Shown here one piece after another: positions 11,223 through 58,623 of a stretch of DNA of 64,000 nt (within the stretch, counting starts at the first letter, position 1; every line of letters begins with the position of its first letter). This DNA comes from Azolla caroliniana (lineage: Eukaryota > Plantae > Polypodiophyta): NCBI GenBank assembly GCA_043228905.1, contig JBHGNT010000004.1, positions 6,138,001 to 6,202,000 of the forward strand, given 5' to 3'. The position numbers and the translations under genes were made by a program. The notes below the pieces were generated by a model. It saw nothing but the letters and a program-made list of their open reading frames with translations. It did no database searches and was not told where the DNA came from.

Positions 11223-13418
11223 TCAACCTGACTGATATGTTGTTACGCCCATCTGTTGCCGAAGAGACCGGAATCGGTCTGCCGAAAGACACTTGGTCAT
11301 TCCATCTGCGACATTATCGGTTGTGGATATCTTCTCTAAACCGATTTTCCCGGAAATGACGCAGTCCCGAACGAAGTGATATCGAATTTCAATATGCTTG
11401 GAGGCGTTGTGATGAACCGGATTTTTCGACAAAGCAACAACACTCTGATTGTCGTTGTAGACAACTGGAGCCGAGTCGGAGTCGACTTGCCGAAATGTGT
11501 GCACCAGCCGACCGAGCCATAAAGCTTCTTTCGCTATGTCTGAGGTAGCTACATATTCTGCTTCGGTCGTTGAGGTGGTTGTGCACACCTGAAGTTTCGA
11601 CTTCCACAAGATTGCTCCATTGCCGAATTTAAAGCAATATTCGGTTATAGACTTGCGACTATCCACACAGCCGGCGAAGTCCGAGTCGGTGTAACTGGCT
11701 ATGCCTGAAGTTGAGTTCGGACCGAAAAGGATGCCGTGGTCTTTTGTGCCGGCTAAATATCTGAACACATGCTTGACTGCGTTCCAGTGCGATCGGCCGG
11801 GATTGTGCATAAATCTGCTGATGACTCCTACGGTGTGAGAAATATCAGGCCGTGTCGCGACCATCGCGTACATCAGAGAGCCTACTGCCGGTGCATACGG
11901 TACCGACTTCATGTCTTCCCCCTCCGGACCGGATGTTGGGTAGTCTTGCTGAGAAAGCCGAAGATGAACGGGGAGCGGGGTCGAAGCAGACTTGGCCGAT
12001 TGCATGTTGAAGCGTTCCAAGACACGTCCGATGTAGTCGGTTTGAGACAGAAAAAGCTGTCTTTTGGCGCGATTCCGACTAATCTTCATTCCAAGTATGT
12101 GTCTTGCCGGACCGAGGTCCTTCATGGCAAACGTCAATCGCAGTTTCCGAACGAGTTCGGTGAGCTCTCCGGTATGCCGACCGGAGAGTAGCATGTCGTC
12201 CACGTAGATGATGAGGAAGACGGGAGAACCGTCTTGAGCTGTTTTGGTGAAGAGGCAGTGGTCCTCATCGCTCTTGGAGAAGCCGACCGACTGGATGAAG
12301 TCGTCGAACTTCTTGTACCAATGTCAGGGTGCCTGTTTCATACCGTAGAGACTCTTCCTGAGTCGGTAGACTAGATGTTCCTGGCCGGTGGCCACAAAGC
12401 CTTTCGGCTGCTCCATGTAGATTTCCTCCTTTAGATCACCGTGGAGGAATGTCGTTTTCACATCTAGCTGAATCAGCTCCAAATTGTCGGCAGCCACAAC
12501 ACCGAGCATGAAACGAAGGGTGGTCATTTTCACCACTGGTGAAAAGATTTCGTCGAAGTCGACGCCATATTCCTGTTGAAATCCCTTCGCAACTAATCTG
12601 GCCTTGTACTTTGGGGTGGTCGAGTCGGACGTCACCTTTAGTCTATAGACCCACTTGCAAGGAAGAGCACGTCGGTTCTTCGGTAAGTCGACCAGATCCC
12701 AAGTTTTGTTGGCGTGGATGGAGTGCATTTCCGACTCCATTGCCAGATGCTAGGTGGCTGAATCGGCAGTTGCCGATGCTTCTTCGTAGGACGTCGGTTC
12801 ACCGGCGTCGGTGAAGAAAATGCCGGGAGAGTACCTCTCCAGAGGTTGCGACAGTCTCTCGGATCTTCGAGGTATGACTGGGCTGGTCGCACCGGGTGTC
12901 GATGTCGGATGGTCGGAAGCCGAGCCATTCGGCTATGCCGAATCTGTGGATTCGGTGCGAGAGAAGTCGGTTACCTGTGAAACCGGTCTCGTGTTGTGTG
13001 TTGGGCCGTCATGAAGGGTTGGCACTTCGGAAAATATTACCCTTTGGACTTCGATAGGCCTTTCGGCCATTTTGTGCATAGTTGACTCGTTGAACACGAC
13101 GTTCGAACTTCGGACGATTTGCCTGTGCTCAGGGTCCCAGAGTCGGTATCCGATCTCGCCGTCGGGTCCATACCCGAGGAAAACGCATTTCCTTGATCTC
13201 AGTTCGAGTTTTCGGCGGTCGTCTTTCAGTATGAGGGCGTATGCCTCGCAACCGAAAATCCTCAGCTTGTCATAATTCGGCTTTCTACCGGTTCATATTT
13301 CCTGAGGTATCTTAAGTCCTAGAGGTCTACTTGGCGACATATTGATTATGTGTACTGCCGTGAGTAGAGCCTCTGCCCAAAAGCCATCCGACAGTCCGGA
13401 GTGTTGGAGCATGGATAC
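11223..13418 (-). pseudogene. Copia B integrase C-terminus, RT and RNase H
   Basis: ORFs 12324-12740 (YKARLVAKG, QLDVKTTFLHG) and 11223-12203 (YVDD region, YTDSDFAG, KHIEIRYHFVR). Confidence 0.9.
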
Positions 13419-13517
13419 TGTCATGAACAGTACTGAGACAGAGAAGGAATTAGTACTAAACGAAGGATTAGTACTATGAGAGGTGTGGAACTTCTTCGAG
13501 AGAAGGAAGAAGTGAGC

Positions 13518-13565
<48 letters not shown>

Positions 13566-13783
13566 TGATAAGAAAGATATTTATTATATGAAGAGAATAT
13601 ACAACGGTGGCTAAAAGGCTTAAGACTGGCGTTGAACCAATTTGGTTCAACATAATGCCTAGTGCCCTCTTTTATAGTGTTTTCAGGAGTAATCCTGAAG
13701 CTTCTAGAATGTTCCAGAGAAATCTGGAATATACACTAATTTCCTATAATAAAATGTAAATGAAAATAATATCCTACGTATTA

Positions 13784-13856
13784 CAATAGATGGTCTAATG
13801 GTCAAGAGCTCGACCCATATAACCTAAGGTCATGGGTTCGAGTCTTGCCATATCAT
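13784..13856 (+). ncRNA. tRNA-like Pol III A-box/B-box module in the chromovirus LTR end (also 19023-19095, 38788-38860, 58547-58619)
   Basis: A box TGGTCTAATGG (13791-13801) and B box GGTTCGAGTC (13835-13844) at tRNA spacing; acceptor stem does not pair. Confidence 0.6.
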
Positions 13857-16800
13857 GACACTATCCCCCCTTTAAAACGACGAGTGTCACGAGTCGTCTT
13901 GGATTGAGGACCCGGTTTGTGTGGATATTGACGATGGAAGTCTTCAAGAAGAGCACGAGCATTGGTTACATTCTCGATCGGTTCCCAAGTACGTTCGCTG
14001 GGACTATAGCCTAGCCAATCGACTAGATAGTAGAGCTTGTTGCGAACAATCTTGGAATCAAGAATGGCGGCAACCTCGTACTCCGGCCCATCTTCAAGCT
14101 CGATCGGGGGTGGAGGTTGGATAAGGCGTTCTGGGATGGTGCTCTCGTGGTAGGGTTCGAAGAGAGAACTATGAAACACCGGATGTATCCGAAGTTGAGG
14201 AGGTAGATCGAGACGAAAAGCAACATCATTAATCTTTCCAATAATACGGAAAGGACCTAATCGCCGATAATCCAACTTCTCACATGGGCGAGTAGTCTTG
14301 ATGTGTCGTCATAGCAACCACACCCGATCTCCAATATTAAAACTAGATGAAAGTCGATGACGATCCGCGTAGACCTTGTGTGTTTGTTGAGCTTGCTGGA
14401 GATGAGTAGATAAATCCGCTTGTATCTTGCGTAACCGCTCCAAACGATCCTCCGCGCACGGATTTGTGGACACCTCTGGGGTTTCAAGTACACTCCACCG
14501 GGGGTGACATCCCGTATAAGCATAAAATGGCGTAACTTTAGTGGATGCGTGGATAGAGTTGTTATAGGCAAATTCGGCGAAGTGGAGAATATTTGCCCAG
14601 TCGTCCTGATGATAGCTGAGAAAGCACCGCAGATACTGCTCCAACGTTTGATTTGTTCGTTCAGCTTGGCCGTCAGTTTGTGGGTGGTAGCCGGAAGAGA
14701 GGTTACAAGTGACCTTGAGCATGTTAAAAAGGTGCTTCCAGAATTTTGACACGAACTGGGGTCCACGGTCGCTGATGATACTATCGGGGAGTCCATGATG
14801 CCGACATACTTCACGCATGACAATTTCGGCAGTGTCTTCACTGGAGATCTCCTTAGTACATGGCAAGAAATGAGCCATCTTCGTATATCGATCGACCACC
14901 GTTAGAATCGCATTGAACCCCTTAGAGACTGGAAGATCTGTGATGAAGTCTAGAGCAATGGATTGCCACGGCTTGCTTGGAATTGATAATGGTTCTAATA
15001 AACCATATGGATGATGCCTTGGCATTTTCGCTCTGCAACATGTATCACAAGTCCGAACAAAATCCTCGACAAATTGTCGCATACAGGGCCACCAGAATGA
15101 TCGTTGTACTAAATGTAATGTTTTAGTACTACCAAAATGCCCAGCTGTATATGTGTCATGACAGTTTTGTACTACTCGAAGGCGGCAAGAACCATTAGGA
15201 ACATTCAAAAGTTCTTTAAAGAAGAGTAATCCATCATGGTATTTGAATTTCCGATAGTCCGTACCTGGTGGTTGCGACTGTGAACACGACGCTCGAGAGG
15301 GATCAATTTGTGCTAGTATAGCTTGGGCGAACGCATCTGTCTTCAAGTCTTCACGTATGGTATCGATAACGCGGGAATCCATAGGCATGTCAAAGATTTG
15401 TGTTGCTTGTAATCGTGCCGGTCCCAAGATGACTTGTTTTTGGTTATCGAAAGCTGGCTCGCCGGGACGGGGTGCTAGATACGAACGCCGTGATAATGCA
15501 TCTGCCTTCCCTTGGTGCCTCCCCGGACGATATGTAATTTTGAAGTCGAAACGCATGAGGAAGTGGGCCCACCGAGCTTGACGTCGATTCAACACACGAG
15601 CATCCTGAAAGTAGGCAAGATTCTTGTGGTCACTAAATACGGTGACTGGATGAGAGGATCCCTCCAGCAAATGCCTCCATTGCATAAAAGAATCCACTAT
15701 TGCCAACAGCTCCTTATCATGGATTTCGTAGTTGATTTCGGCGGCATCAAACTTGCGTGAGTGAAAAGCCACAGGATGTAGCTTTTCATCATTCCCCTGT
15801 TGTGACAGAATGCTCCCCAATGCAAAATCCGATGCGTCAGCTTCGATAATGAATGGTTTCTCCAGATCGACATGAGCTAGAATTGGAGCCGATGTAAATG
15901 CTTTTTTAAGACTCTCGAAAGCCATGTCCGTTTCTTCAGACCAGGTGAACGGTTGTCCCTTCCTGGTAAGTTGTGTGAGAGGTAGAACGATCTTTGAGTA
16001 ATCCTGTATGAACTTCCGGTAAAAATTGGCAAAGCCTAAGAAGCATTGCACATCCCGTACCGAACGCGGAGTCTGCCATTCTACCACCGTTCTGACCTTA
16101 GCTGGGTCCATGGAGATGCCTTCTGACGAAATGATGTAGCCGAGAAATTCCACTTGGTTGCACCCGAAACTACATTTTTCTAGCTTTGCATACAGACCAT
16201 GTTCTCGAAGTCGTTTTAGTACTAATAATACATGAGAATCATGTTCTTCTTGGGTCTTTGAATAAACCAGTAGATCATCCAAATAGATGATCAAACAATC
16301 ATCCAATAGATCTCGGAATATATCATTAGCCATGTGCTGGAAGACTGCCGGCGCATTAGTGAGGCCGAACGGCATGACAGTATACTCGAAGTGCCCATAT
16401 CTGGTGCGAAACGCGGTCTTCCATTCGTCTCCTGGTCGGATCCGTACGAGGTTATATGCTCCCCGTAAGTCGATCTTCGTGAAGAACCTGGCACCATTGA
16501 TCCGTTCTAAAAGACTTGAGATAAGGGGAAGAGCATACCTATTCCTGATTGTAACCTTATTCAAGCCACGGTAATCTACAACGAGACGAAGCGATCCATC
16601 TTTTTTCTTGACGAAGAAAATGGGCGCACCGGCTGGAGATTTCGAATGCCGAATGAAACCATTTTCCAAATTCTCCTCTATATAGGCCCGAAGGACTTCC
16701 AGCTCGGTTGGTGACAAATTGTAGATCGGTCCCCATGGCGGCTCTTTTCCCGGTTGTAAATCGATGGGGCAATCGTACGGTCGATGATGAGGAAGTGTGT

Positions 16801-17440
16801 TGGCTTGTACTTTATCGAACACATCGGTGTAATGGCGATACTTCTCGGGAAGTTGAACAGTGGATTCTTCTTTAGTGGTGTTGGAGGGGTTTACTGATAT
16901 TGCAAAGAGGAACATTTCCTCCTTGTGCCCTTCTTTACGCAACTGACGTAGCGAAATGGTTGCCATCTTCTGAGTTGACCCTTGGGCTTGTCGACACCGG
17001 ATTTCTCTTGTTCTCCAATCTATGTCAGGGTTATGTAACTCGAACCACGGTAGTCCTAAAACTATAGGATGTTCTGGGATACTAATAATATTAAATGATA
17101 CTACACATACTAAGTTATCTAGGACAATATTAATGGGCTCTGACTCTTCTAGGATATTTCCGGAAGCAATGGGACGTCCATCAATGACTACTACAGAGGC
17201 TGGACACTGGAGTTTTCTTAGGGATATCTTATGAGCTTGAGCAAATTTCTTATCCATAAAGCAAGAGTTAGCTCCGGAATCTAGGAGTGCTAGGACATGT
17301 ACTGGAGGGGTACTTTTAGTACTAACTATTACTTGGGCTACGAACACATCACTAACTTGCTTAGAGGGAATGGAACCACTAATGGGCTGCACAGATCTAG
17401 GGCTGTCCAACCAAACGGCTCCTATTTTGGCTGGACTTAG
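13853..17440 (-). pseudogene. Chromovirus Pol (protease, RT, RNase H, integrase, chromodomain) with an in-frame nonsense codon at 14309
   Basis: LLDSGA, IYLDD, DASDFA, HHCC, DFIT/SDRG; WLL-TGA-RHIK (CGA>TGA) continues in frame into GPF motif and chromodomain YEVAAILD..YLVDWLGY..TWEP. Confidence 0.92.
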
Positions 17441-17449
17441 TCATTTAAC
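17397..17449 (-). promoter_or_regulatory. gag-pol -1 ribosomal frameshift signal (slippery site plus pseudoknot)
   Basis: G TTA AAT, 6-nt spacer, 11-bp stem GTCCAGCCAAA/TTTGGTTGGAC, loop TAGGAGC able to pair with downstream GCCCTA; pol is in the -1 frame. Confidence 0.7.
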
Positions 17450-18588
17450 TCTTCTTCTAACTGACTAAGGACATCAAATTTGTTTGCTAGATCTGGGATA
17501 TTAGTACTATTAGGACTATCAGATATCCCTACTGAAATAGGTTCGGATTTAGTACAATTAGAACTAGCGACTATTTGGTTTACCTGTCTTCTTGGCCTAT
17601 GGGGGCAATTTATTGCGATATGTCCTGGTCCACCGCAGTAAAGACATAGTCGATTTGTACGGCGTCGCTGCTTTTCTTCTTCGGATAATGGCCCTCGACG
17701 ACGTGTAGTGTCAATCTCCATCGGAGTCGGAGTATTCGCTGGAGACGCATTATATGACTCCCTCGGAAAAGGTCTTGCTACCACTGAGGCGTAGGTGGGC
17801 TCTGATCTTGCCCTCGGCATCTGTAGCTGTCGTTCCGAACGTCGCTCAAAGAGGCGGTTGTCACATCTCACCGCGCGACTGATTGCTTCTGTTAAGGACT
17901 TTGGCTCTTCGGGGAAGGTCAAGAGTAAATCCTTGACGTCGTTGCGTAAACCATAACGGAATTGCTCCATCAACGCTTGATCATCCCAAGGGATATCGGC
18001 GGCGAGTAGGCGAAAATCTGCAGCGTATGCGGAGGCTGGACGGTCACCTTGGCGTAATCGCCGGATTTTGTTGATTGCGGTCCTGATGCTGTCAGTATCT
18101 CCGAAACATGCTTTAAACTCACCTAGAAACTCTTCAAAATTGTTGAGTAACGGAGATTCCTTTTCTAATAGTGGAGCAAACCATGACAACGCTGAGCCAC
18201 TTAACAAAGTGCCTACTAAACCCACTCGTGATGCATCGGTGGGATATCGGGAAGGATGCATTTGAATAACTAATCGTACCTGGTTAAGGAACCCTCTAAA
18301 CTGCGATCGCGTTCCATCGAACTTCGTGGGAAGGCCAATCTTAGGTTCTTTATGAATCCCTTGTGTTCCGGGCCCATGTTGTTGCATCGCTACGATGGTG
18401 GCTTCGAGTTGTTGCACGCGTAACGCAAGTTCCCCATGTTGTTGTTGCGTTTGCTGCTTTTCTAAGGAGATTTGCTGAAGATCCCCCAGCAACCGTTGGT
18501 TTTCTTGTTCCAAAGCATGGAACTTCTCCTTCAAGCATTGGAATTCCGAGAAAACAGATTGATATTCTTCAGCGCTAACAGTGGCCAT
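17437..18588 (-). CDS. Chromovirus Gag (sushi/PEG10-like capsid, CCHC knuckle)
   Basis: Intact 383 aa; LPTKFDGTRSQFRGFLNQ capsid motif; CLYCGGPGHIAINC. Confidence 0.92.
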   Translation of the reverse strand: MATVSAEEYQSVFSEFQCLKEKFHALEQENQRLLGDLQQISLEKQQTQQQHGELALRVQQLEATIVAMQQHGPGTQGIHKEPKIGLPTKFDGTRSQFRGFLNQVRLVIQMHPSRYPTDASRVGLVGTLLSGSALSWFAPLLEKESPLLNNFEEFLGEFKACFGDTDSIRTAINKIRRLRQGDRPASAYAADFRLLAADIPWDDQALMEQFRYGLRNDVKDLLLTFPEEPKSLTEAISRAVRCDNRLFERRSERQLQMPRARSEPTYASVVARPFPRESYNASPANTPTPMEIDTTRRRGPLSEEEKQRRRTNRLCLYCGGPGHIAINCPHRPRRQVNQIVASSNCTKSEPISVGISDSPNSTNIPDLANKFDVLSQLEEELND

Positions 18589-18647
18589 GGGATGAAAGAA
18601 AAGAGGAATAAAAGATTAGTAGGAAATGAGAGAGACAGAAGGTAGGA

Positions 18648-18659
18648 AAATTGGTTCAA
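18648..18659 (-). promoter_or_regulatory. Self-priming PBS of the chromovirus
   Basis: TTGAACCAATTT 2 nt after the 5' LTR, no TGG tRNA complement; complementary to AAATTGGTTCAA in the LTR (18871-18882), 33 nt downstream of TATAAAA. Confidence 0.75.
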
Positions 18660-18765
18660 ACTGTCATGAACAGTACTGAGACAGAGAAGGAATTAGTACT
18701 AAACGAAGGATTAGTACTATGAGAGGTGTGGAACTTCTTCGAGAGAAGGAAGAAGTGAGCGAGAC

Positions 18766-18804
<39 letters not shown>

Positions 18805-19099
18805 TGATAAGAAAGATATTTATTATATGAAGAGAATATACAACGGTGGCTAAAAGGCTTAAGACTGGCGTTGAACCAATTTGGTTCAACATAATGCCTA
18901 GTGCCCTCTTTTATAGTGTTTTCAGGAGTAATCCTGAAGCTTCTAGAATGTTCCAGAGAAATCTGGAATATACACTAATTTCCTATAATAAAATGTAAAT
19001 GAAAATAATATCCTACGTATTACAATAGATGGTCTAATGGTCAAGAGCTCGACCCATATAACCTAAGGTCATGGGTTCGAGTCTTGCCATATCATGACA

Positions 19100-20019
19100 G
19101 ATACAACGCGTTCTTGAATCGTCCGAGTCATGCGTTCTGCGATTCCGTTCTGCTCCGGACTATATGGTGCCGTATATTCATGTCTAATGCCGCGTTCTCG
19201 CAAAATTTGACGAATTCATCAGATTTGAACTCACCTCCATTGTCGGTTCGGAGACACTTCAGTTTCCGACCGGTCTGGTTTTCAACCATTGCGAGCCAAT
19301 CTGAGAAGATCGAGAACACCCGATCTTTGGTTCTGATGGGGTAAGCCCACACCTTCCGAGTCGAGTCGTCAATGAAACTGACGAAGTACGAGGCACCACC
19401 GAGTGACTGATGTGGCATCGGGCCACAGACGTCCGAGTGGACCAAATCGAGCGGGCTCGACTCTCTTGGTTCTGATGTCGGGTGTGATGCAGCTACCTGT
19501 TTGCCGTACTGTGCAATGCTCGCAAAACTGATGGTCCGAGAAGGAGAGTTTCGGGATGTATCCGGCTCTGGATAGGTGCGTGATGCCGGCCTTGCTGAGG
19601 TGTCCGAGTCGTCCATGCCATAAGGATGACACAGGGATATCTACCAGAAATAAGTTACCCTCTCTGAGTGTGACATACAAAGGGTACAATGAGTGTACCT
19701 TTGGTCCTCTAGCAAGCAGGAGGTTCCCTCTGTGGAGTGTCCACCCTCCTGATGAGAAACCAACACGGATGCTAGCTTTATCAAGTTGTCCGACTGAGAT
19801 CAAGGGTCGTGAGAGCTCAGGAACGTGTCGAACGTTGTGTAGTACGAGTGTAGAGCCACCCGGAAGGTTGAGCTCTACGGTGCCGATTCCGATGATAGCA
19901 CAGTGCTGCGAATTTCCGACCCGAACTGAGTCGGAGTGCCGGTCTGAATATTGCCGAAACTATGATCGGTGAGGTGTCACGTGATACAACGCGCCCGAGT
20001 CCAGAAGCCATGTGCTCGA
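19100..20019 (-). pseudogene. Copia B protease, GAG-pre-integrase and integrase N-terminus
   Basis: WLLDSGALYHV, LWHGRLGH, LVHSDVCGP, RTDNGGEF; frameshifted. Confidence 0.88.
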
Positions 20020-23000
20020 TGTTATTCTCTGACCGGACAAGGCCTAACACAAGGTGTCACGGAGACACTTCACAAGGGGTGATTACGGCATAGGATTAAG
20101 ATTCAACGATTACACCGACTTACGTAGGTTACACGATTAGAGTGCTTTGGTTAATTACACGCGTAAGATATAACAGTAATTACAGAACGGAAATCAACAC
20201 AGAAGTATAAACACCATATGCTCTATTAATTATCCGCTGCGATTACAATGGGGTCCGAGCCTTTAAATAGGTTTCCGGCCCGTAGTACAAAACGGTGCCT
20301 ATCGCACCTATTCGGGATCCGTCCGGATCTGGAACGGCATACCGTTTCCAGTCCGTCCGTCCACACTATGCTTATTTACAACCATACTTAATTAATTCCT
20401 TCACTCCGTATTTTGGACTCCTTGCCGGCCGGTAACACATGGCACGCCCGTGGGACAGTACCTTGTACGTCGAACCCTTCTCGGCCCCTTCATTGTTCAC
20501 CCAAATTGTCCAAAATACTTTGTTCCAGAATTTCCACTTGTTCTTCCGGTTGTGGTTGTTGCGGCTGTGCTTGTTGCTGCTGCTGTGGTTGCGGTTGGGA
20601 CTGAGGCTGCTCCGGCTGCTCTATAGGCGGCTGCTCCGTTCGTTTCTCTGACTCCGGCATCTCCGTTTGACTGCTTCCGGTCCGGTCTCCTTCCAGTAAC
20701 GGTTCCTCATCACCGAGGTTGACCGTAACCGGTTCTCGTGCTTTCTCTTCTCGGATCCGGGACCTCTCGTAGCTTTCAAACTGGATCTGCGCCTCCAGCC
20801 TGTCGTCGTCCAGCTGAGCTACAAGTTGCCGGACTTGCCCTAGTTGGTCCTCTGCCAAGGCTTGAAAGTCTTCGGCCAGCTCATCTCTTATGCCGGTGAA
20901 GTCTTCGGAAGTCAGCATATAGCAATCATCTCCCTCCTTCCGCCGGTTCTCTACGTCGGCCCGGAGCAATTGGAGTTCCGCCGCGTTCGTGGCCCACTTG
21001 GTCCACCATTTGACGGAACCGTTGTCAATCAAGCTCTTGGTCTGGTTCAACCAGGCCCGCATGATATCCTGGATGCGACTTGCTCCCATTTGCGCTCTAC
21101 TTTCCACAACTTGTCGTTCCTCCTTCAACTGCTTGATGAGATTCGCCGTATCCTCCGCCTGCTCTCTGTAGCGCGTCAGCTGCCCTTGATATGTTGTCTG
21201 CAGCCTCTGCAGTACCTCCGCCGCTCTTTCTTTTTCCGCCTGCTGTTGCCTGAGGAGCTCTGTCCGAACCTTCTCCGCCTCTTCCAACCGTCTTCTGGTT
21301 TCCGCTTGTTCATTAGCGTATGCCGTTGCGGTCCGATCAACTGCTTGCCGGAGCTCATCCGTCCGTTCCTTGTGCTCCGTTTGCAACCGTTTATACTCCC
21401 GGTGCAAGTGCTCAAATTCCTCCGTTTTTTGTTTGAGCTTGCCGTTGATCTGGCGATGGTTCCGGTCCTCCCGGTCCTTTAGCTGCCGGAGTTCCTCTTT
21501 CAGGCGCTCTATTTTTGTTTCGGCGTTTCTCCGGAGCCTGTCCTTCTCTTGCAGCATTTTCTCCTTTTCCTCCTTGAGCCGGTCGTACGCTTGGTGGCCT
21601 TTTCGTAAACTCTCCTCAGCCCGGCGTAGATTCTCAGCAGTCTTTTTGAGTTCTGCCTCCGCTGCCGTCTTCAACTCTCTTTCGCGGCTCCTCAGCGCTT
21701 CTTGGGCAGCTAGCTCATCCTTTAAGTCCGCAAGCTCTTGGGCTTGTGCCGCATTTCTCTCCGGAACGGTTTCCGTTGCCGGGGTCTGATTGCTATGTAC
21801 AGGTTGATCTGACGCTTTATTCTGTACATTGCCCGGAGTCACCGGTGCTTGGACTTGTGTTGTCAAAGCCAATTGAGCCATTTCCCTTGTGACCCTGTCC
21901 AAGTCTTGTTCAAGGCTCCGGATTCTGGACCGGGCCGTCTCTAGATCTACGGTTGTGACGAGCAACCGTTCGTGGTGCGCTCTCTCCTCCGCCTCTATGT
22001 ACTCGACCGCTCCGGCGATCTGCTCGCCTACCCACCGTAGCCACATGCTACTGGTGCCTTGCTGCTGTACTGGTCGGGTCGGCTCGTTCACTGTGGAATT
22101 GTCTGGCCTGAGTGCCTGTATCTGCCGTTCTGGTTCTACTTCTTGGCCACCGTGTGTGCTGGCTGGGCTCGCCGGCTGTTGAGTTCCGGTTCTCGCCGTC
22201 TCCGGAGCCGTTGGAATGACTTCTTCTATAGAAGTCGTCAAGGCCGGTTCTATACGCACCGGTTCCGGTTCCTCCCTTGTGATTTGCTCAGGTTGAGTTG
22301 GGGGCGTTTCCTCCTTTTGCGGGTCCGAACACTCCCCCGCTGTCCCGGCGGTCCTACTTCTTGACCGTCGTTGGAGGTGCTCTTCTGGCTCCTCCGTTTC
22401 CTCTTCCTGGGTAACGGCATGTTTCTGTGCCGTCAAGGGTTCCGGTTCCTTCTGTCCCGGTCGCCGTATGGTTATCTTAACGGGTCCCACCGGTGACACC
22501 TCCTCCGGTTCTGGGAGCCGTTTCTTCCCTTTCGTCGCCTTCGACGCCAGCAGCTGCTGTCGTTTGGACGCGAGTTTACTGTAACCGAAGAGATTCCTCC
22601 GCGACTCTCCGGATCTTGTTGGAGAACGAACGATCCGAGCGAATTTCGTGCGCTGCTTGCTGGAAAGTCTCACGCCGTCTTTGCCGTTCGGCGAGGCGTC
22701 GAGCTCGGTCTGTAACCAGGTCGTGCGTTGGTCTCGTCATCCATTAAGCCGTCGTTCGCTGCGAGAAAGCAGGAATCGTGGTCGCCAAAACTGTGTTATT
22801 CTCTGACCGGACAAGGCCTAACACAAGGTGTCACGGAGACACTTCACCAAAGGGTGATTACGGCATAGGATTAAGATTCAACGATTACACCGACTTACGT
22901 AGGTTACACGATTAGAGTGCTTTGGTTAATTACACGCGTAAGATATAACAGTAATTACAAAACGGAAATCAACACAGAAGTATAAACACCATATGCTCTA

Positions 23001-38569: not shown

Positions 38570-38864
38570 TGATAAGAAAGATATTTATTATATGAAGAGA
38601 ATATACAACGGTGGCTAAAAGGCTTAAGACTGGCGTTGAACCAATTTGGTTCAACATAATGCCTAGTGCCCTCTTTTATAGTGTTTTCAGGAGTAATCCT
38701 GAAGCTTCTAGAATGTTCCAGAGAAATCTGGAATATACACTAATTTCCTATAATAAAATGTAAATGAAAATAATATCCTACGTATTACAATAGATGGTCT
38801 AATGGTCAAGAGCTCGACCCATATAACCTAAGGTCATGGGTTCGAGTCTTGCCATATCATGACA
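34793..38864 (-). mobile_element. Chromovirus copy 2, 3'-truncated in integrase; gag has a nonsense codon
   Basis: 5' LTR 38423-38864; pol 34787-37171; CAG>TAG at 37590. Confidence 0.93.
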
Positions 38865-58328: not shown

Positions 58329-58623
58329 TGATAAGAAAGATATTTATTATATGAAGAGAATATACAACGGTGGCTAAAAGGCTTAAGACTGGCGTTGAAC
58401 CAATTTGGTTCAACATAATGCCTAGTGCCCTCTTTTATAGTGTTTTCAGGAGTAATCCTGAAGCTTCTAGAATGTTCCAGAGAAATCTGGAATATACACT
58501 AATTTCCTATAATAAAATGTAAATGAAAATAATATCCTACGTATTACAATAGATGGTCTAATGGTCAAGAGCTCGACCCATATAACCTAAGGTCATGGGT
58601 TCGAGTCTTGCCATATCATGACA
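54556..58623 (-). mobile_element. Chromovirus copy 3, 3'-truncated; gag 56961-58112 intact
   Basis: 5' LTR 58186-58623; pol 54550-56934. Confidence 0.93.

What the first reader, a model, noticed from the sequence alone, without database searches (positions are those of the whole stretch)
13784..13860. tRNA-like Pol III promoter built into the end of a chromovirus LTR
Seen: the last ~75 bp of every LTR copy read AGATGGTCTAATGGTCAAGAGCTCGACCCATATAACCTAAGGTCATGGGTTCGAGTCTTGCC on +, with A and B boxes at tRNA spacing. The 3' part resembles (from memory) organellar tRNA-fMet (AGCTCG..ATAACCT..AGGTCAyGGGTTC). It sits in U3, antisense to the element, directly against the terminal repeat, and is present in both LTRs, so it is part of the replicating element. 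Known analogy: Cassandra TRIMs carry 5S-derived Pol III promoters in their LTRs. Inference: it could drive antisense RNA over the PPT/chromodomain from the 3' LTR, drive outward transcripts from the 5' LTR, or act as a TFIIIC barrier. This is notable in an element that appears to need no tRNA primer.
Basis: partly seen in the sequence, partly recalled or inferred. Interest (0 to 1): 0.72.

Follow-up and report, generated by a model that had tools for sequence, protein, structure and literature searches.

The report
Outward tRNA promoter in retrotransposon ends
The end-repeats of a large family of self-sufficient plant jumping genes carry a backwards, tRNA-derived promoter whose two boxes and spacing are kept across distant relatives whose repeats otherwise share almost nothing, so it is likely a working protein-binding signal, possibly a portable shield against gene silencing.

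Summary
Confirmed and wider than reported. The stretch lies antisense at the U3 start of both LTRs of a chromodomain Ty3/gypsy element (Tcn1-like, predicted self-priming; 1,925 PPT/LTR junction matches in the genome). It is tRNA-derived but not a tRNA. Its A and B boxes sit 45 nt apart. 7 of 8 distant families from other samples, and 3 more families in this genome, keep both boxes at 44-45 nt, although their LTRs share little else and silent sites are near saturation. An unrelated, chromodomain-less Gypsy lineage in this genome has the same kind of module (5 of 30 LTRs), pointing away from the TATA region, in 4 of 5 on both sides. Within this family the A box drifts, the B box does not, and a lineage-specific hairpin is conserved. 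No terminator is conserved and no expression or binding data were available. Best reading: a TFIIIC-binding, Pol III-type promoter acting as a boundary for the LTR's Pol II promoter (inferred). The fMet origin is not supported. Closest known: Helenus/Cassandra TRIMs and foamy-virus U3 cassettes. The scan noted tRNA boxes in fungal LTRs before.

The parts
13784..13860 (+). tRNA-derived module in the 3' LTR (antisense to the element, U3 start)
13791..13801 (+). A box (tRNA positions 8-19); best A-box score of 428 LTR positions
   Evidence: variable at positions 9, 10, 12 within the family
13827..13845 (+). conserved block, tRNA positions 44-62, including the B box at 13835-13845
13798..13851 (.). 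rod hairpin (arms about 13798-13819 and 13831-13851), specific to this lineage
19023..19099 (+). same module in the 5' LTR, pointing out into flanking DNA
38788..38864 (+). module in a duplicated 5' LTR (tandem segmental repeat)
58547..58623 (+). module in a second duplicated 5' LTR
13419..13860 (-). 3' LTR (TG...CA)
18662..19099 (-). 5' LTR (TG...CA)
13414..13418 (.). 5-bp target-site duplication, matching 19100-19104
13861..13873 (-). polypurine tract
13670..13676 (-). TATA-like box of the predicted Pol II promoter (18909-18915 in the 5' LTR)
   Evidence: sequence; function inferred
18871..18882 (-). predicted 5' end of the genomic RNA, the self-primer (13632-13643 in the 3' LTR)
   Evidence: 12-nt complement of the site after the 5' LTR; fixed 37-38 nt from TATA in 12 LTRs
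18646..18661 (-). primer-binding position, complementary to the LTR itself rather than a tRNA 3' end
17437..18615 (-). gag (Retrotrans_gag, Ty3_capsid, zf-CCHC)
14309..17440 (-). pol: protease, RT, RNase H, integrase; ends at a premature stop in this copy
   Evidence: many genomic copies have an open 1203-aa frame
13853..14308 (-). rest of pol: SH3 and chromodomain with the Y/W/Y cage residues
   Evidence: cage definition from PMC3350952 passages

Best explanation
This is a tRNA-derived A-box/B-box module, kept antisense at the start of U3 across a clade of autonomous chromodomain retrotransposons, that likely works as a DNA binding site for the Pol III factor TFIIIC and so likely marks a chromatin boundary outside the LTR's Pol II promoter. 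Shown: tRNA origin, orientation, position, long-term conservation of boxes and spacing, loss of the cloverleaf. Inferred: one early capture of a tRNA or SINE head, copied to both LTRs by reverse transcription. Inferred: TFIIIC binds (with or without Pol III firing) on active copies. Inferred: because the element's chromodomain would steer it into heterochromatin, a bound module between flanking DNA and the 5' LTR promoter would keep that promoter open. The hairpin is a later feature of this lineage.
For: Boxes at 44-45 nt in 6 of 7 distant families by a tRNA-trained matrix allowed 30-60 nt; the 7th aligns without gaps at 45. Four-fold sites in their pol differ by 1.3 substitutions per site to saturation, and their LTRs share only short motifs with this one. 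Among 8 families identity is 0.58 at tRNA positions 8-19 and 0.74 at 44-61, but 0.29-0.30 at 27-43 and 62-73. Anticodon and T stems are not paired above shuffles: boxes kept, RNA fold lost. Three more chromovirus families in this genome carry it (L378/L379, L380, L389; 0 of 100 shuffles each). The B box is unchanged in all young sister subfamilies seen. A chromodomain-less Gypsy lineage (pol about 23% identical) has antisense modules upstream of the TATA region in 5 of 30 sampled LTRs, and a sense module downstream in 4 of those 5. One such element has 99.9% identical LTRs (L388). TFIIIB/C limit silencing spread in yeast and tRNA genes insulate in animals (PMC9540200, passages).
Against: No binding or expression data. 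The A box drifts in active subfamilies: G10 is lost in several and A14 in one. C61 is missing in 3 of 8 families. Positions 44-52 are as conserved as the B box (0.74), which the standard box consensus does not explain. The B-box CpG decays like other LTR CpGs (0.16 against 0.05-0.25), so most copies show no protection from methylation. No clustering of other insertions upstream of the A box was found. 25 of 30 LTRs of the second lineage lack a module within 600 nt, so it is dispensable there. The tree resolves only four sub-lineages among the module carriers, with unresolved deep nodes. Three or so independent captures pointing outward is not significant alone, and could reflect tolerance. The one plant barrier review consulted cites TFIIIC evidence only from yeast and animals.
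Confidence: 0.45

Rival explanations
1. The product matters: Pol III makes an antisense RNA from the module (short hairpin, or read-through over the PPT and chromodomain) that tunes the element's own expression or acts as a silencing decoy, as foamy-virus U3 cassettes make miRNAs.
For: Both boxes and tRNA spacing are kept. In this lineage the hairpin arms have 0 of 38 subfamily-variable sites against 46 of 288 elsewhere in the LTR (P=0.002), with one compensated pair between old and young subfamilies. The old subfamily has four T right after the B box. Foamy-virus precedent: PMC7693620, abstract and passages.
Against: First T4 lies 10 to about 1,380 nt past G53 depending on family, and 908 nt in this one. 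The hairpin is absent in the 7 distant families on the module strand (z +0.5 to -1.8). The middle of the module is at chance identity. Folding does not pick a strand.
Confidence: 0.22
2. The module acts on the sense genomic RNA as a site complementary to the D and T arms of a host tRNA, helping reverse transcription, strand transfer or dimerisation, as the U3 half of the Ty3 bipartite PBS does.
For: Antisense orientation in U3 is what this predicts. The conserved block 44-58 is longer than a B box and matches Ile(TAT) and Lys(TTT) genes of this genome at most positions. Ty3 precedent: PMC5371799, passages. An HIV-1 U3/R precedent was seen by title only.
Against: The element is predicted to self-prime, so a tRNA has no 5' site to bridge (PMC6317226). 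No single tRNA is the best match across subfamilies (Arg, Trp, Ile, Thr). The hairpin would bury the site in this lineage. Sense-strand modules downstream of TATA in the second lineage cannot pair with a tRNA. Exact 44-45 nt spacing is not required for RNA pairing.
Confidence: 0.15
3. A passenger SINE or tRNA head whose surviving letters are kept for another reason (Pol II upstream element, integrase-end or PPT context), with the hairpin made and extended by template switching.
For: In sister subfamilies the A-box region has become a copy of the inverted LTR end (L312, L333, L336), as quasi-palindrome correction would give. Kojima notes that many Repbase LTRs resemble part of a tRNA (PMC10886601). 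An earlier scan note judged a fungal case a passenger (e1-9852194, not tested here).
Against: The kept letters are the tRNA promoter positions on both sides of a freely changing middle, with no indels, at near-saturated silent divergence. Distance to the LTR end varies 20-69 nt in the chromoviruses and 144-266 nt in the second lineage, so it is not an end signal.
Confidence: 0.18

Closest known systems
Helenus / TRIMp3 (Kojima 2024, PMC10886601; parts 1-4 of 6 and searched passages read, supplements not seen)
   Same: tRNA-derived sequence in both LTRs, conserved around boxes A and B, not a functional tRNA, probably from a SINE insertion.
   Different: Helenus elements are non-coding TRIMs of 311-1263 bp with a tRNA PBS, proposed to be transcribed by the Pol III promoter. 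Here the element is 5.7 kb with gag and pol, has a TATA promoter and no tRNA PBS, and the module points away from the element, so it cannot make the genomic RNA. The paper expects autonomous partners not to share such LTR sequence.
Cassandra TRIMs (as described in PMC10886601)
   Same: Pol III-type promoter carried inside plant LTRs.
   Different: 5S-derived, non-autonomous, drives the element's own transcript.
Bovine and simian foamy virus U3 miRNA cassettes (PMC7693620, abstract and passages)
   Same: Pol III-directed unit in U3 of an autonomous retroelement; hairpin RNA.
   Different: Expression and function are shown there. Here there is no conserved terminator or clade-wide hairpin, and the unit is tRNA-derived.
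Ty3 bipartite PBS (PMC5371799, passages); HIV-1 U3/R tRNA-Lys3-like sequence (title only)
   Same: U3 sequence complementary, on the genomic RNA, to tRNA D and T arms.
   Different: Those elements are tRNA-primed and match one primer tRNA. This one is predicted to self-prime and matches no single tRNA.
Tcn1 clade of chromoviruses (Neumann 2019, PMC6317226; Novikova 2010, PMC2864245; passages)
   Same: Chromodomain with aromatic cage, no tRNA PBS, predicted self-priming, nearest named proteins from fungi and vertebrates.
   Different: [quoted passage not shown] Supplements were not seen.
tDNA and TFIIIC chromatin barriers of yeast and animals (PMC9540200, passages)
   Same: A/B-box DNA next to heterochromatin as a candidate boundary.
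   Different: Those are fixed host loci. Here the module would travel with a transposon, and barrier activity is untested.

Membership tests
Functional tRNA gene | cloverleaf with acceptor, D, anticodon and T stems | tested here: not met
   ARAGORN none; cloverleaf model 9.8 bits; anticodon stem 2 of 5 pairs
Type-2 Pol III promoter | A box and B box at tRNA-like spacing | tested here: met
   score 26.5, 0 of 200 shuffles, 45 nt; training tRNAs score 24.5 minimum, 31.9 mean
Type-2 Pol III promoter | downstream T-run terminator | tested here: inconclusive
   first T4 at 14744 after the 3' LTR and 19279 after the 5' LTR; position varies widely between families
Type-2 Pol III promoter | TFIIIC binding and Pol III transcription | not testable with these tools
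   needs ChIP or in vitro transcription
Helenus / TRIMp3 | tRNA-derived sequence in both LTRs | tested here: met
Helenus / TRIMp3 | short, non-coding TRIM | tested here: not met
   5.7 kb with gag and pol
Helenus / TRIMp3 | tRNA primer-binding site | tested here: not met
   the site after the 5' LTR complements the LTR itself; not compared with a full tRNA set
Tcn1 chromovirus | Ty3/gypsy domain order with C-terminal chromodomain | tested here: met
Tcn1 chromovirus | aromatic cage residues in the chromodomain | tested here: met
   Y, W, Y read from the translation
Tcn1 chromovirus | self-priming layout | tested here: met
   12-nt complement; L244 keeps pairing with different middle letters, one mismatch
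Tcn1 chromovirus | RT phylogeny with reference Tcn1 elements | tested here: inconclusive
   no named Tcn1 reference was returned; nearest named RT-RNase H hits are fungal (up to 64%) and vertebrate; tree unresolved at depth
Free SINE family | dispersed copies outside LTRs with tail and TSD | tested here: inconclusive
   30 of 30 loci for the old-subfamily motif end at this LTR's terminus or match the LTR; most other A/B hits followed up were also in LTRs, three were not classed; no genome-wide SINE search was possible

The most novel reading that the evidence does not exclude
Autonomous plant LTR retrotransposons carry portable tRNA-gene insulators: at least two unrelated Gypsy lineages captured tRNA-type promoters that face away from, and in one lineage bracket, the Pol II promoter, recruiting TFIIIC so that the element stays transcribable in the heterochromatin where it lands.
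Probability: 0.3. Interest if true: 0.85.

Novelty: new variant of a known kind. Interest (0 to 1): 0.64.

Why it matters
How heterochromatin-seeking retrotransposons stay transcribable is an open question, and chromatin barriers are poorly known in plants. A conserved, outward-facing Pol III-type module in thousands of LTRs gives a direct test of both: ChIP for TFIIIC and box mutants in a promoter reporter. It would also mean such LTRs scatter more Pol III-type sites than the host has tRNA genes (2,180 matches to one strict pattern; the tRNA gene count was not determined). It extends the TRIMp3 idea from non-coding TRIMs to autonomous elements with a different use of the promoter.

Tried and rejected
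Functional tRNA: rejected. fMet origin: rejected as best match; isotype could not be assigned from 106 distinct tRNA sequences of 18 types, an incomplete set. Expression: no RNA holder listed; two read-laying runs on 8 of 22 runs gave contigs only, with no strand or start information. They do show the LTR in runs labelled as other organisms. Landing-pad idea taken from earlier scan notes: one insertion 15 nt upstream of the A box among 156 LTR hits. The genome-wide pattern gave 3 matches against 0 at a control site, but all sit at an ACG site and that inserting family has CG at flank positions 2-3 in 13 of 17 host flanks, so I count it as no support. Strand of the hairpin from G-U asymmetry: undecided. 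Protection from CpG decay: not seen. Viral contigs gave 3 weak, irrelevant loci. Outgroups at 30-53% identity: 0 of 11 loci show an antisense B-box-like motif after the chromodomain match, but LTRs were not located in most. L224 lacks the module but is a broken copy with 67 nt of LTR in view. The HIV-1 paper was not held. Literature searches that found no description of this module in autonomous plant LTRs; Repbase and REXdb annotations and paper supplements were not seen.

Full report
Observation. The letters are present at the stated place. An 18-nt piece occurs 4 times in the window against 0.04 expected, and the four copies are identical over the module. Two are the LTRs of one complete 5.7-kb element (13419-13860 and 18662-19099, 5-bp TSD); the other two come from a 19.76-kb tandem repeat. 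The element is on the minus strand, with gag, protease, RT, RNase H, integrase, SH3 and chromodomain. The module is therefore antisense, at the very start of U3.

The element. The chromodomain has the three aromatic cage residues. The site after the 5' LTR is a 12-nt complement of LTR sequence about 33 nt past the TATA box, and a distant family keeps this pairing with different middle letters and one mismatch. Nearest named RT-RNase H proteins are fungal and vertebrate. This fits the Tcn1 clade, reported from mosses and club mosses and predicted to self-prime (PMC6317226, passages). The host is probably a moss; that is an inference from the clade. The family is large and young: 1,925 PPT/LTR junction matches and many open 1203-aa frames among 150 scored matches.

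Is it tRNA-derived? ARAGORN and Rfam do not call it. Against 106 distinct tRNA sequences from this genome the best local score is 43, reached by 1 of 300 shuffles, and the reverse strand scores 28. A sequence-only model from 25 genome tRNAs ranks the four copies first in the window (E about 6e-5). The cloverleaf model scores the window copy poorly (9.8 bits) but relatives at 19-24.5 bits (L214, L227, L221, L219). The isotype is not assignable: Arg, Trp, Ile and Thr genes lead in different subfamilies, and the Met-CAT gene scores 34. So it is tRNA-derived, not a tRNA, and not specifically fMet.

Within the family. Of 70 3' LTRs anchored on the terminus and PPT, 65 were kept and 5 dropped for deletions or insertions. 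Subfamily-level variable sites, CpG excluded, number 0 of 38 in the hairpin arms, 46 of 288 in the rest of the LTR (P=0.002), 4 of 8 in the loop, 3 of 11 in the A box and 0 of 9 in the B box (P=0.21 alone). An older subfamily (283 pattern matches) has the module at the same place with four T after the B box. Across 42 old and young copies one pair is compensated, U-A against C-G, which is one event. Young sister subfamilies keep the B box but lose A-box G10 or A14, and in some the hairpin has grown by copying the LTR end. Within the family, hairpin and B box cannot be separated, and the A box is loose.

Between families. A metagenome scan gave 65 loci. Eight have 64-74% chromodomain-region identity and distinct LTRs. 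Their LTRs share with this one only the terminus, the B-box region and the self-priming palindrome, plus one short match. Seven of the eight have the antisense module; L224 is a broken copy with 67 nt of LTR in view. A tRNA-trained matrix allowed 30-60 nt spacing and chose 44-45 nt in 6 of 7 (shuffles reaching the score: 0, 16, 0, 3, 0, 0 of 200). For L230 it chose another site (10 of 200), but L230 aligns at 45 nt. Four-fold sites differ by 1.3 per site to saturation. Identity among 8 families is 0.58 at tRNA positions 8-19, 0.29 at 27-43, 0.74 at 44-52, 0.74 at 53-61 and 0.30 at 62-73. Anticodon and T stems are not paired above shuffles; the D stem is marginal (P=0.04 for Watson-Crick pairs). 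The hairpin is not shared. Three further chromovirus families in this genome carry the module, two of them in both LTRs of full-length copies with 97-99.5% identical LTR pairs. The tree groups its module-carrying chromovirus rows into four sub-lineages with unresolved deep nodes; L244 and L389 were not among the rows. These are not eleven independent tests.

A second lineage. Scanning 940 kb of fetched DNA for other A/B pairs led to Gypsy elements without a chromodomain, with pol about 23% identical. In 5 of 30 sampled 3' LTRs there is an antisense module 144-266 nt from the LTR start at 44-46 nt spacing. Two of the five have two such modules. Four of the five also have a sense module downstream of the TATA region, two strong (0 of 100 shuffles) and two weaker (1-2 of 100). 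The modules thus face away from the Pol II promoter on both sides. The other 25 have none within 600 nt.

Mechanism. Selection has kept the promoter positions and their spacing, not the tRNA fold, not a terminator (first T4 from 10 to about 1,380 nt downstream) and not a fixed distance to the LTR end. That points to a DNA-binding role, most simply for TFIIIC. The module cannot make the genomic RNA, since it points outward. Yeast TFIIIB/C sites and animal tRNA genes act as chromatin barriers (PMC9540200, passages), and a fungal retrotransposon chromodomain of this class binds H3K9 methylation (PMC3350952, passages). I therefore favour a boundary that protects the 5' LTR promoter (0.45). Rivals are a Pol III RNA product (0.22), a passenger with a template-switch hairpin (0.18) and a tRNA-annealing site on the genomic RNA (0.15). 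Against my reading: the A box drifts, C61 is lost in 3 of 8 families, positions 44-52 are unexpectedly conserved, the B-box CpG decays like others, and nothing here shows binding.

Comparison and novelty. tRNA-like LTR sequence is known in Helenus TRIMs, and Kojima remarks that many Repbase LTRs resemble part of a tRNA but analysed only TRIMs (PMC10886601). This element fails TRIMp3 membership: it is autonomous and lacks a tRNA PBS. Foamy viruses give a precedent for a Pol III unit in U3 of an autonomous retroelement, and Ty3 for tRNA-complementary U3 RNA. My searches found no description of a conserved antisense A/B module in autonomous plant LTRs; database annotations and supplements were not seen. 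Earlier scan notes report tRNA boxes in fungal LTRs; their landing-pad idea found no support here. Verdict: real, under long-term selection, a new variant of a known kind, function inferred. Interest 0.64.

Noticed in passing
L388 1684-2780 and 8513-9611; also L344, L355/L386, L368/L390, L371, L342: Chromodomain-less Gypsy families whose LTRs carry one or two antisense A/B modules before the TATA region and often one sense module after it; L388 has 99.9% identical LTRs and open gag and pol frames.
   Followed up: partly
window 13628-13638 (-) and 18867-18877 (-): The motif at the predicted RNA start fits the B-box pattern on the sense strand and stays 37-38 nt from TATA in 12 LTRs, including letters beyond the self-priming duplex. 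No A box goes with it.
   Followed up: partly
window 13877-13899: A short imperfect inverted repeat just upstream of the PPT is conserved at DNA level in most related families (L214, L218, L219, L221, L244); possibly a cis signal.
   Followed up: no
window 15032-64000: A 19.76-kb block of nested retrotransposons is repeated in tandem about 2.5 times at 99.9% identity; recent duplication or an assembly artefact.
   Followed up: no
L031-L039, L048, L153-L167: Nuclear tRNA genes (Lys-TTT, Arg-TCT, Ile-TAT, Thr-TGT) lie in tandem arrays with many decayed copies.
   Followed up: no
L276-L305: An abundant Gypsy family (3,168 LTR-end matches) has CG at flank positions 2-3 in 13 of 17 host flanks, suggesting a CpG target preference.
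   Followed up: partly
L128 150-1000: Tandem array of decayed tRNA-like units next to an old LTR.
   Followed up: no
window 20490-22736 (-) and its two copies: 748-aa open frame with no Pfam match.
   Followed up: no
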